From NCBI RefSeq assembly GCF_003334785.1, contig NZ_QOWV01000002.1: DNA of 64,000 nucleotides; one strand, written 5' to 3'. Positions 18,001-21,000 of this stretch are shown in pieces; the first letter of the stretch is position 1, and every line of letters begins with the position of its first letter. The DNA comes from Escherichia coli (GTDB lineage: Bacteria > Pseudomonadota > Gammaproteobacteria > Enterobacterales > Enterobacteriaceae). The position numbers were made by a program.

Positions 18001-21000
18001 CTCACGCACAACTTCCGGCGGCGCGTAACGGTCATTCAGGTCATCCCACAGACGTAGCATGTTATCGCTACCAGGGTGAACATCCTCGTTAGTTCCGGCA
18101 AGCGCACTAATAACCTCATCGGCTGCCTCAATAATTTTCAGCGCTTGTTCTCTGGTAATAGTGGTCATTTGTTAATCCTCAAAACTTTATGCCCGGGCGC
18201 AAAAGCACGCGTTTTGTCTTTGCTTATTCGCCACCCGTCTTTACGGGCCTCTTTTGCACAGCCAGCCCATGACGTACCTATATACTCACCGAAGTCTGGC
18301 GTCTTATATTTGCCATCTGTACACTGGAGGCAATCACAATAGAGATGCATGGTGTAACTTGCAGCGATAGCCATATCACTCTCCTTTGATGCGAATGCCA
18401 GCGGCGCGTGGCACATTAACTTCCACGATGCGCACAGTTGGTTTGTACATCTCAATCGCTGTCAGCCAGTCAGCTCCTGTCATGCGCTTTTCCGCATCGC
18501 CATTACCCATCCCACTCAATACCATGACAAGTTCAACCTAAACGTCCAAACATCAGTGGTTCTTGATGGCATTAATGGCCTTACAGTTTATGCGGATAAT
18601 GATGTTGAATTTAATACTGATCATCCTGTCTACAGAGAAAGAGTAGTATTTGGTGTGTTTAATGGGAAAAATAATACATTTAAAGGATTTAACTGGAATA
18701 GTAACTTTACAGACTACAGTATATCTCCTACTGATACTGAGCATAAGATACAAGAACACTGGAAAGGTTTTGTGTTTGAAGGTTGTTCTTATAATAGCGT
18801 AAGGAAAAATAATGTTAATGCCTGCCATGTTTTCGTGCTGGCTGATAACATCAATCTATCAACAAATCTTCAGAATAAAAATATTCAAGTGATTGAAAAC
18901 AAACTTAAATATGTTGTTAATTATTGTTTTCTTTCAAGAGCTTTGGAGTGGTATGTTTTTGACAAGAATGAAGTTTCTTTTCAAGGCAGAAAGTGGCATA
19001 CGTTTGGTGAGGCAGCAGCGCCAACAACACAAACAAAGCATATTCGCATATGCGACAACAAATTTACTGATCAGATTGCTCAGCAAGCATGCATAACACC
19101 AGGACCACATATCGAAAGTGGATTGATCAGTGGAAACTTCTGCAAACGGCATTACGGAATTTTCATTGAGAATGGTAGCACCTCAAATCTTATTATCACT
19201 AATAACACCAGTATTAGTACTGGTGAAAGGGATGATACTGCTCATATTCTTCTTGTTGGTGAAGTCGATGACCAGCCTATAGGTAACTCACCACATTCAA
19301 ACGTTTTAATTTCTAACAATATGTTTCAAGGAGGAGGAGAGTCCATCAGAGAATATAATACTGGAGTTTCTTTACGAACAGGATTCAGAATTATTAACAA
19401 TCAGATGGTTGACTGTAAGCCTCCTGCAATTACAAACCAATCATTTATCGGTCTTGAGTTCATAGGCAACTACCTTGTAGCACCAACAGATTTCCCTGAT
19501 CTGAGATTAGGAGGTCAGCATACAGTCATCAAAGATAACACACTGATTGGTGTAAGAATAAGAGCGAGAGATCTTGGTTATACAGTCATTGATATGAGTG
19601 TTACAGAAAATGCATTTAGGGCTAACTCTTTGGGGGATAGCTATCCAGCACTCATAGACTTCACTGAATTTACAGGATTAGTTGCAAAAGAAAATGATGT
19701 ATCAGCATCTCATTTCACCAATGTTATTGTACTTCCAGATAACTGCAATATTGCTGGGTTTAGATATCTAGGTATTACCGAAGGTCTATTAGACAATCCA
19801 TCAACTTTGTATGGTTCTAAACTACAATGTAAGCTTGGAGATATTGTATATAATAGAGAGCCATCTATATATCAAAATAAACTTTGCTGGACGTGCGTTG
19901 ATTCATCATCAAAAACATTTGGTTCTGTAACCGTAGCAATATAAATAAATGGCCCCATAATCGGGGCCTTATATTTATTCAATAAATTTAATTATTTTGT
20001 TTTTTGCTTTATCCCACACCAAAGCAGCACCAGATTTCGATAGATGAACTGCATCAGAGTATATGAATTGATAATCATTAGTCATCGTTATGCATTTACC
20101 ATCTTTGCAAAGATAATCGTATGGGTCAATAAATAGAACGTTATTATACCCATTTAGTGCACTTCTTATGGCTGAGTTCATTCGTTTGTTGAATGTATCT
20201 TTGTCGTCTGTACTCAAATATCTTGTGCATACTAGCGGTAGGTATGATGGTCTATTGACACATTTTTCTACACCGCCAACACCATCTGTGCCAGGAGGGG
20301 CCCCAAGGATTACCACTTTTTTATTATTTAAAGCAGCTATATTATTTTTAATATTATTGATGCTAAAATTAATAAATTCATTTTCATCATTGAATTTCTG
20401 TTGGTTACCCTGCGGATCACTTACCATTCCTTCATATCCTATCCACCGCATCCCAAAAATAACAGGTACATTAAATTTGTTCGAATAATCAATAGCAAAG
20501 TTCAGTCTTTGCTGGCACTTTGGATCAGGAAGTCCTGCGTAGAACGTTGTATAATTACGCGAGAAAAAACAACCATCATTCAATGATGTAATGAATTTAT
20601 GACCTTGAGAATTTACATCTATTGCATGGGCATATTGCCTTGCAAAGCTGTCACCCATAAGCACAGCTGATACTTTTGATGCCGTCTTATCTCCAATTAT
20701 ATGCGCTCCAGCATAGTACCCATTTCCACCATATTGTTGCAGATGGAACTCCCCTGAATTATTCATTTTTTGTTTAAAGTACTCGTTGACTCGGAAGGAG
20801 TACCCATTATTTTTATATATAATATGAGATACCGATAAAACACTAATAAAAACGATTGAAAAAGAAACTGCCATTTTGTTGATTGAAGATAGATTAATAC
20901 GTCTAAACTTGTTCTCAATAAAATAATAACTCACATAAGCCAGAAAAATAGAAACGGATACTATTGATGCTTTTTCGAGCGTATTGATCGGTCTGAAAAT

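What the first reader, a model, noticed from the sequence alone, without database searches (positions are those of the whole stretch)
18358..19944. Tailspike-like beta-helix ORF lacking a credible start: probable deletion scar
The 462 aa reading frame has beta-helix-like composition consistent with a receptor-binding tailspike or tail fibre. It has only a GTG without RBS at 18556, and the frame stays open for 66 codons upstream (to a stop at 18355) with no ATG, GTG or TTG. That upstream stretch overlaps the oppositely oriented 96 aa ORF. This looks like the C-terminal part of a structural gene whose head-binding N-terminus and all other virion genes were deleted, with the junction in 18456..18555. 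Retained enzymatic tailspike domains are sometimes co-opted, so expression is worth testing.
Basis: seen in the sequence. Interest (0 to 1): 0.45.

Follow-up and report, generated by a model that had tools for sequence, protein, structure and literature searches.

The report
Truncated phage tailspike pseudogene remnant
The open reading frame is the leftover back two-thirds of a phage tailspike gene in a 6.5-kb dead prophage beside the E. coli argW tRNA gene, cut off by a deletion that removed about 34 kb of phage genes; it is an ordinary decay product and most likely not expressed.

Summary
The window is E. coli chromosome (dsdXC ... argW–yfdC). Positions about 16912–23463 are a KplE1/Sf6-type prophage remnant at tRNA-Arg(CCT). 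ORF 18556–19944 (GTG, 462 aa) corresponds to codons 272–733 of a 733-aa P22/Sf6-type tailspike. That tailspike is found intact, 99.6–99.7% identical, next to the same acyltransferase and intS at the same argW site in complete P22-like prophages of other E. coli. Tailspike-derived DNA begins at 18503 (codon 254). It abuts the last 42 codons of an ead/Ea22 early gene on the opposite strand, and the two share 3 bp of microhomology (TTA, 18503–18505). The missing part is the 117-aa head-binding domain plus about 136 conserved residues of the receptor-binding module. The beta-helix body and C-terminus remain. There is no ATG/GTG/TTG between the upstream stop and the GTG, no Shine-Dalgarno sequence and no promoter-like site. 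Gene callers disagree on the start (462 vs 429 aa). Every full-length homologue carries 245–490 residues N-terminal to this point. All copies of the remnant share one junction and are nearly identical, so it is a single recent event. This is a known kind of feature, of low interest. Co-option is not excluded but nothing supports it.

The parts
16912..16927 (.). attR core of the prophage remnant (ATGGTGTCCCCTGCAG, the reverse complement of the published KplE1 16-nt core CTGCAGGGGACACCAT)
   Evidence: Direct repeat with 23448–23463. The core sequence is quoted in PMC2951348.
17001..17201 (-). torI (excisionase / recombination directionality factor), 66 aa
   Evidence: RefSeq annotation of an identical genome. 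96–97% nt identity to the Sf6, HK620 and Kapi1 xis region. Sf6 synteny.
17259..17426 (-). 55-aa early-region gene, function unknown
   Evidence: Annotated CDS, ORF.
17527..18168 (-). 213-aa early-region gene (PHROG_60 / DUF551-like C-terminus)
18165..18374 (-). 69-aa early-region gene (PHROG_926).
   Evidence: The PHROG_926 profile 1–69/69 matches residues 28–96 of the 96-aa ORF. RefSeq calls 18165–18374.
18376..18504 (-). 3' remnant of an ead/Ea22-like gene (last 42 of 196 codons). With 7 codons of antisense tailspike DNA it forms a chimeric 49-aa ORF 18376–18525.
   Evidence: RefSeq pseudogene flag. 41/42 identity to residues 155–196 of the intact gene in L004. DNA alignment.
18503..18505 (.). 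Deletion junction: 'TTA' shared by both parental sequences (3-bp microhomology)
   Evidence: Three-way alignment of the window, the intact tailspike (L001) and the intact ead gene (L004). Megablast boundaries 404 and 406 of the query that starts at 18100.
18503..19944 (+). Tailspike-derived DNA: codons 254–733 of a 733-aa P22/Sf6-type tailspike (beta-helix body plus C-terminal domain), with no start of its own
   Evidence: 4–6 nt differences in 1442 nt from the intact genes. PHROG_24092 tail fibre, E = 4e-82. AF2 and Foldseek.
18556..19944 (+). The ORF as annotated (GTG = internal Val272 of the intact protein); RefSeq WP_062873411.1 'hypothetical protein'
19951..19968 (.). G+C-rich hairpin with T-runs on both strands, between the convergent tailspike and acyltransferase genes (bidirectional terminator-like)
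   Evidence: A terminator is annotated at the same position in Sf6.
19975..21936 (-). Intact 653-aa O-antigen acetylase-type acyltransferase (Acyl_transf_3 + SGNH), the likely lysogenic-conversion gene
   Evidence: PHROG_6705 'O-antigen acetylase', E = 4e-152. Pfam families on record. Same protein accession in L001 and L002.
22130..23287 (-). intS integrase (385 aa)
23448..23523 (-). attL core (23448–23463) inside tRNA-Arg(CCT) argW (23449–23523)

Best explanation
The ORF is a pseudogene: the 3' two-thirds (codons 254–733) of the tailspike gene of a P22/Sf6-like temperate podovirus integrated at argW. One illegitimate recombination event across a 3-bp microhomology (TTA, 18503–18505) joined tailspike codon 254 to codon 155 of an ead/Ea22 early-left gene on the opposite strand. 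By analogy with Sf6, this removed roughly 34 kb: the rest of the early-left operon, immunity, replication, lysis, head, tail and DNA-injection genes, the immI region, and the first 253 codons of the tailspike. What survives is the recombination module (intS, torI, both att cores), a few small early genes, the intact O-antigen acetylase-type acyltransferase, and the tailspike stump beside it. The stump is probably retained only because it is adjacent to the acyltransferase and the event is recent. It lost its own start codon, RBS and late-operon transcription. The GTG at 18556 is an internal valine codon (V272). It is therefore most likely not translated. In the ancestral phage the protein would have been a trimeric beta-helix receptor-binding and receptor-cleaving tailspike specific for the host surface polysaccharide. 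Shown: the homology, the breakpoint, the missing parts, and the absence of start signals. Inferred: a single-step deletion, non-expression, and the ancestral enzymatic role.
For: The window is identical to annotated E. coli chromosomes at dsdC–torI ... intS–argW–yfdC. A 733-aa tailspike aligns at 475/486 identity with the frame from residue 254 onward, and similarity stops exactly there. DNA alignments place the switch at 18503–18505, with TTA shared by both parents. The intact protein has Pfam Head_binding at 1–113 and matches the Sf6 and P22 head-binding domains in the PDB. PHROG_24092 and the lytic-phage tail fibres align from residue about 118, so 136 residues of the receptor-binding module are also missing. 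The intact gene, followed by the same acyltransferase, intS, yfdC and mlaA, lies in prophages with the P22 coat, gp4, gp10, gp26, gp7, gp20, gp16, mnt/arc/ant genes, and differs at only 4–6 of 1442 nt. The gene order tailspike > terminator < oac < int | attP | < xis < ... < ead is that of Sf6. The flanks are 95–97% identical to Sf6, HK620, CUS-3 and Kapi1. Among 1.84 billion representatives, all full-length homologues (737–940 aa) place ORF residue 2 at their residue 245–492. There is no canonical in-frame start upstream, no SD motif at any in-frame start, and no promoter-like site on the + strand between 16800 and 18556. By contrast, the intact gene has GGAG 9 nt before its ATG. Gene callers give 462 or 429 aa for identical DNA. 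All remnant copies share the junction and differ by 0–2 SNPs in 6.6 kb.
Against: The 480 tailspike-derived codons carry no stop or frameshift, and the conserved motifs likely to form the active site (for example GRxWHTxGE at residues 415–423 of the intact protein, E476, D368) are all retained. A functional product is therefore not excluded by sequence. No expression data exist. No single intact prophage carrying both this tailspike and exactly these early genes was found, so a one-step internal deletion is inferred rather than shown. The consensus promoter scan is crude, and read-through transcription cannot be excluded.
Confidence: 0.92

Rival explanations
1. The truncated tailspike is a domesticated gene. 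It is translated from the GTG (or another non-canonical start) and acts as a free polysaccharide-binding or polysaccharide-cleaving beta-helix, for example remodelling O-antigen or capsule or excluding superinfecting phages, as with the bacterial tailspike-like enzyme WceF.
For: The frame is intact over 480 codons. The beta-helix body, the conserved motifs and the C-terminal domain are retained. The exact 462-aa sequence is present on at least 178 contigs. A bacterial tailspike-like enzyme (6TGF, WceF) shows that co-option is possible.
Against: There is no start, SD motif or promoter. The late operon that drove the gene is gone. The N-terminal 136 residues of the receptor-binding module are missing, although every full-length homologue conserves them. 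This includes the helix 225–237 that precedes the beta-helix in the model. All carriers are near-identical, so the intact frame reflects recency, not selection. The four remnant-specific substitutions are 2 synonymous and 2 non-synonymous, which shows no sign of constraint. Other members of the lineage show continuing decay of the island.
Confidence: 0.04
2. The junction did not arise by an internal deletion of one prophage. Instead it arose by illegitimate or short-homology recombination between two different elements, such as a resident argW remnant and an incoming P22-like phage, or tandem prophages. In that case the left (torI–ead) and right (tailspike–intS) halves have different origins.
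For: Lambdoid and P22-like early regions are highly mosaic. The left half matches many unrelated phages and phage-plasmids at 91–97%. The exact 213-aa early protein was found only in remnant contexts, not in the intact prophages that carry the tailspike. L016 has a different early region with the same tailspike.
Against: The order and orientation of both halves are exactly those of a single Sf6-type prophage, with one att core at each end. This is the most parsimonious reading. In either case the ORF remains a truncated pseudogene.
Confidence: 0.15
3. The ORF is a complete, stand-alone non-phage beta-helix enzyme gene that starts at 18556.
For: RefSeq annotates it as an ordinary CDS. UniRef names it 'right-handed parallel beta-helix repeat-containing protein'. 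Two distant relatives (P0016 at 431 aa, P0018 at 515 aa, 27–29% identity) are short proteins.
Against: Homology to the intact tailspike continues 53 nt upstream of the GTG, up to the junction. All close homologues are 733–940 aa phage tail proteins. P0018 carries its own roughly 100-aa N-terminal beta-helix start, which this ORF lacks.
Confidence: 0.01

Closest known systems
KplE1 (CPS-53) cryptic prophage of E. coli K-12 at argW
   Same: Same integration site (argW). Same 16-nt att core duplicated at both ends. Same intS/torI recombination module, with int and xis at opposite ends. In both, the virion, lysis and immunity genes are lost and an O-antigen modification module next to intS is retained.
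   Different: K-12 KplE1 is 10.2 kb with 16 ORFs (PMC2951348). From my own knowledge, not tested here, it carries a gtrABS-type module (yfdGHI) and a tail-fibre assembly remnant (tfaS). This remnant is about 6.5 kb, carries an Acyl_transf_3+SGNH acyltransferase and a tailspike stump, and has a different deletion junction.
Shigella phage Sf6 tailspike gp14 – oac – int – attP – xis module (Lederbergvirus)
   Same: Identical gene order and orientation, including the terminator between the convergent tailspike and acetylase genes. The head-binding domain of the intact homologue matches Sf6 gp14 residues 1–116 at E = 7e-63. The int and xis flanks are 96–97% identical at nucleotide level.
   Different: The receptor-binding module is unrelated in sequence to the Sf6 endorhamnosidase. 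It belongs to PHROG_24092, which is shared with lytic Kagunavirus, Vectrevirus, Kayfunavirus and Gamaleyavirus tail fibres at 44–58% identity. The acetylase is a 653-aa two-domain protein rather than the 333-aa Sf6 Oac. Here the gene is truncated.
N-terminally shortened P22 tailspike (head-binding domain removed), a classic folding model (from established literature, not tested here)
   Same: A tailspike lacking its head-binding domain. The beta-helix and C-terminal trimerisation part are retained.
   Different: The laboratory construct keeps the whole receptor-binding module, including its N-terminal cap, and is expressed from a designed start. This stump lacks a further 136 (or 154, counting from the GTG) residues and has no expression signals.
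WceF of Pantoea stewartii (PDB 6TGF), a bacterial tailspike-like glycan-modifying enzyme
   Same: Parallel beta-helix tailspike fold encoded in a bacterial chromosome. It gives weak sequence and structural matches to the intact homologue.
   Different: WceF is a complete, expressed protein within an exopolysaccharide gene cluster. Its sequence match to the intact homologue lies in residues 7–170, which are deleted here.

Membership tests
P22-like (Lederbergvirus) tailspike | N-terminal head-binding domain (Pfam PF09008) that docks the spike to the tail hub | tested here: not met
   It is present at residues 1–113 of the intact 733-aa homologue. It is absent from the window, where tailspike-derived DNA begins at codon 254. 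The window ORF is a fragment of a member, not a functional member.
P22-like (Lederbergvirus) tailspike | Right-handed parallel beta-helix receptor-binding domain followed by a C-terminal domain | tested here: met
   In the AF2 model of the intact homologue, pLDDT is mostly above 80 for residues 120–733, with regular short-strand rungs from about residue 241 to 660. The top Foldseek PDB hits are the Sf6, P22, HK620 and Det7 tailspikes. Residues 254–733 are retained in the window at 99% identity.
P22-like (Lederbergvirus) tailspike | Position as the last late gene, convergent with the O-antigen conversion gene next to int | tested here: met
   Synteny with Sf6 and with the intact argW prophages L015 and L017–L020.
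P22-like (Lederbergvirus) tailspike | Polysaccharide-cleaving (or deacetylating) activity on the host receptor | not testable with these tools
   There is no Pfam or NCBIfam catalytic family hit. Only conserved acidic and aromatic motifs are seen.
KplE1-type cryptic prophage at argW | Integration in tRNA-Arg(CCT) with the duplicated 16-nt core CTGCAGGGGACACCAT | tested here: met
   Core copies at 16912–16927 and 23448–23463, and the tRNA at 23449–23523. Core sequence from PMC2951348.
KplE1-type cryptic prophage at argW | IntS integrase at attL and TorI excisionase at attR | tested here: met
   RefSeq names and positions. Nucleotide identity to HK620, Sf6 and CUS-3.
KplE1-type cryptic prophage at argW | Defective: virion, lysis, replication and immunity genes absent | tested here: met
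   Only 8 ORFs or fragments lie between the att cores, compared with the intact prophages.
Expressed protein-coding gene | Credible start codon with a ribosome-binding site, and a promoter or operon context | tested here: not met
   There is no canonical start between the stop at 18355 and the GTG at 18556, and no SD motif at any in-frame start. There is no promoter-like site upstream on the + strand. The upstream neighbours are on the opposite strand.

The most novel reading that the evidence does not exclude
The tailspike stump is translated from the non-canonical GTG or by read-through, and folds into a soluble trimeric beta-helix. This product binds or trims the O-antigen that the neighbouring acyltransferase modifies. 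The remnant would then be a two-gene, host-serving surface-remodelling or phage-exclusion module, not debris.
Probability: 0.03. Interest if true: 0.5.

Novelty: new member of a known kind. Interest (0 to 1): 0.1.

Why it matters
It matters little biologically. It is a clean, base-resolved example of prophage decay in which the conversion gene (acyltransferase) and the recombination module survive while the virion genes are lost. There are two practical points. First, RefSeq and UniRef carry the stump as an ordinary 'hypothetical protein' or 'beta-helix repeat protein' (WP_062873411.1, and a 429-aa variant of the same DNA), when it should be flagged as a pseudogene fragment. Second, the receptor-binding module belongs to a small family (26 clusters at 50% identity among 1.84 billion representatives) shared by temperate P22-like phages and lytic phages of several genera. 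That may be useful for host-range prediction once its polysaccharide target is known.

Tried and rejected
1. I tested whether the breakpoint coincides with a module boundary, which would leave a complete exchangeable receptor-binding module. tblastn hits in lytic phages began at residues 2–8 of the fragment, which suggested this. It is rejected: with the intact protein, homology to PHROG_24092 and to the same phage proteins runs on from residue about 118.

2. I tested whether the 429-aa cluster member is an independent truncation. It is rejected: the DNA is identical and only the start call differs (GTG at 18655).

3. I looked for an ancestral prophage carrying both halves, using the exact 213-aa early protein. 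Only remnant contexts were returned.

4. I compared substitutions for a selection signal. There are 2 synonymous and 2 non-synonymous remnant-specific changes, and 0 non-synonymous against 3 synonymous in the acyltransferase versus L001. These numbers are too few to conclude anything.

5. Pfam and NCBIfam gave no catalytic family for the beta-helix. Sequence search of the PDB matched only the head-binding domain and WceF.

6. A literature search for the lytic phages carrying the homologous module found nothing.

7. An Rfam scan of 15500–25000 found only the tRNA.

The position of the break in the fold therefore rests on the DSSP string.

Full report
**Context.** The window is E. coli chromosome. 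Positions 18100–20000 are 100% identical to strains JKHS016 and LR-64-2. The RefSeq annotation of the matching record gives frc–oxc–evgSA–emrKY–dsdAXC | torI ... intS | tRNA-Arg | yfdC–mlaA–fadL ... hisJ across the whole 64 kb. ARAGORN and Rfam find one tRNA, Arg(CCT), at 23449–23523. A 16-nt direct repeat, ATGGTGTCCCCTGCAG, lies at 16912–16927 and at 23448–23463. This is the reverse complement of the published KplE1 att core CTGCAGGGGACACCAT (PMC2951348). The segment about 16912–23463 is therefore an argW prophage remnant of about 6.5 kb. Its right part (18500–22100) has 31–39% G+C, against about 48–52% on either side.

**The observation.** ORF 18556–19944 (+, GTG, 462 aa) is real. Its frame is open back to the stop at 18355, and none of the 66 upstream codons is ATG, GTG or TTG. 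Neither the GTG nor any other canonical in-frame start has a Shine-Dalgarno-like motif. The consensus scan finds no promoter-like site on the + strand between 16800 and 18556. All upstream neighbours are on the opposite strand. The real features there are a 69-aa gene (18165–18374), which matches PHROG_926 over the full profile, and a 42-codon 3' remnant of an ead/Ea22 gene (18376–18504) that RefSeq flags as a pseudogene.

**What the ORF is.** Megablast against 5,426 complete E. coli genomes found five with the whole 1.9-kb query. It also found one (2017-02-2CC, locus L001) that matches only from query base 404 (window 18503) onward. There the match lies inside a 733-aa 'phage head-binding domain-containing protein'. 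BLASTP aligns the open frame with residues 254–733 of that protein at about 99% identity, and similarity stops exactly there. The GTG at 18556 is the internal Val272. The intact protein has Pfam Head_binding at residues 1–113. Its residues 1–116 match Sf6 gp14 (E = 7e-63) and the P22 tailspike head-binding domains in the PDB.

The rest of the protein belongs to PHROG_24092 ('tail fiber protein'). The intact protein aligns to this profile from residue 118, whereas the window fragment aligns only from the breakpoint. Alignment with the tail fibre proteins of a lytic siphovirus, a Vectrevirus-like podovirus and a Gamaleyavirus (44–58% identity) shows strongly conserved sequence N-terminal to the break, for example GYxPGTxFGGGxFYWD...HNGITxFSPTVP...GCWxR. 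The stump therefore lacks the 117-aa head-binding domain plus about 136 residues of the receptor-binding module. Counted from the GTG, 154 residues of that module are missing.

**Fold.** An AlphaFold2 model of the intact protein was built on a 19-sequence alignment and has mean pLDDT 79, mostly above 80 beyond residue 120. It shows four parts:
- residues 1–118, modelled with low confidence because the alignment contained no head-binding homologues;
- a mixed alpha/beta region at 119–224;
- a helix at 225–237;
- regular short-strand rungs from about 241 to about 660, then a C-terminal domain.

Foldseek against the PDB returns the Sf6, P22, HK620 and Det7 tailspikes, GH110 galactosidases, alginate epimerases and WceF. 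The break at residue 254 falls just after the helix that precedes the beta-helix. The most conserved motifs of the family (R300, D368, GRxWHTxGE at 415–423, E476) are retained. No catalytic family could be assigned.

**The junction.** A three-way alignment of the window, the intact tailspike (L001) and an intact ead/Ea22 gene (L004, 94% identical) shows where the sequence switches parents. The window follows ead up to ...GCATCGCCATTA and follows the tailspike from TTACCCATCC... The trinucleotide TTA (18503–18505) is common to both. This is a 3-bp microhomology junction of the kind left by illegitimate recombination.

**The ancestral state.** An exact-sequence look-up of a 733-aa member of the same 90% cluster found it at the same chromosomal site, followed by the same 653-aa acyltransferase, intS, yfdC, mlaA and fadL. 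It is preceded there by P22-type coat, gp4, gp10, gp26, gp7, gp20 and gp16 genes and the mnt/arc/ant immI region (L015, L017–L020). These intact genes differ from the window stump at 4–6 of 1442 nt. The arrangement tailspike > terminator < O-acetylase < int | attP | < xis(TorI) < ... < ead/Ea22 is that of phage Sf6. The int and xis flanks are 95–97% identical to Sf6, HK620, CUS-3 and Kapi1. Mapping the two breakpoints onto the 39,043-bp Sf6 genome gives a loss of roughly 34 kb (inference). I did not find one prophage carrying both halves at near-identity. A single internal deletion is therefore the parsimonious reading, but it is not proven. Recombination between two elements remains possible and would not change the status of the ORF.

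An exhaustive phmmer search of 1.84 billion representatives found only 26 relatives. Every full-length one (737–940 aa) places ORF residue 2 at its own residue 245–492. Shorter hits are contig-end fragments or 27–29% identical stand-alone beta-helix proteins with their own N-terminal start. The 90% cluster contains E. coli and Citrobacter proteins of 733, 747 and 812 aa, plus the 462-aa and 429-aa forms. The 429-aa form is the same DNA with another start call, GTG at 18655, which underlines that no start is convincing. Neither refutation criterion is met.

**Is it used?** The exact 462-aa sequence occurs on at least 178 contigs, but always at the same junction. The 6.6-kb remnant differs by 0–2 SNPs among carriers. 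The intact frame therefore reflects a recent, clonally inherited event, not selection. Remnant-specific substitutions are 2 synonymous and 2 non-synonymous, too few to conclude anything. Some carriers show further decay: a frameshifted intS (L021) and a truncated acyltransferase (L012). The acyltransferase is intact and has the same protein accession in L001 and in JKHS016, whose tailspike–acyltransferase segment is identical to the window. It is the plausible reason this end of the prophage persists (inference from the known role of phage O-antigen acetylases; PHROG_6705).

**Verdict.** This is a new instance of a well-known kind of feature, and its interest is low. The only reading with some novelty is translation and co-option of the stump. 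I estimate that at about 3%.

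Noticed in passing
window 17221-17236 (and 23463-23478); L014 5909-5924: An exact 16-nt copy of the argW T-arm (GGAATCGAACCTGCAA) sits just upstream of the torI start, separate from the true att core at 16912–16927. torI therefore lies between two non-contiguous tRNA-Arg-like pieces. The same 16-mer is present in phage Sf6 at its annotated 'pI' promoter / bsq2 boundary.
   Followed up: partly
window 18376-18525 (- strand): The deletion created a chimeric 49-aa ORF. 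Its ATG and first 7 codons are antisense tailspike DNA, and the remaining 42 codons are the C-terminus of ead/Ea22. It ends 2 nt before the start of the next gene. Some gene callers report it as a gene (L021 and L022, 4722–4871).
   Followed up: partly
L001 (NZ_AP027764.1) 2879-15711: A second, independent remnant carries the intact 733-aa tailspike plus the same acyltransferase, but it is not at argW. It lies between a truncated torS (Hpt fragment) and torT. A truncated toprim/primase gene is joined just upstream of the tailspike, and only the last 27 codons of intS are left.
   Followed up: partly
L016 (Logan SRR32134339_29) 3314-5790: This is a third decay variant at argW with the tailspike intact. 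A replication-O gene is followed directly by truncated gp7 and gp20 genes, which implies a different internal deletion of the lysis and head region.
   Followed up: no
L005, L006, L007; cluster members P0029, P0037: The same receptor-binding module (44–58% identity, or at least 90% in Citrobacter prophages) is attached to unrelated N-termini in lytic Kagunavirus, Vectrevirus, Kayfunavirus and Gamaleyavirus phages. It also occurs in 747- and 812-aa Citrobacter proteins. The family is nonetheless very small: 26 clusters at 50% identity in 1.84 billion representatives.
   Followed up: partly
L021 8476-9632; L012 7420-8220: Some carriers of the remnant show ongoing decay. In L021 intS is split into 266- and 116-aa pieces by an indel near window 22498. 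In L012 the acyltransferase is cut to its 266-aa SGNH part, with different flanking genes (LysR and LacY-type).
   Followed up: partly
window 19975-21936 (- strand): The 653-aa Acyl_transf_3+SGNH acyltransferase is absent from all 50,697 phage records at megablast level (query bases 1–2140 unmatched). Its protein accession is the same in L001 and in JKHS016, whose DNA is identical to the window here. The three CDS differences from L001 are therefore all synonymous.
   Followed up: partly
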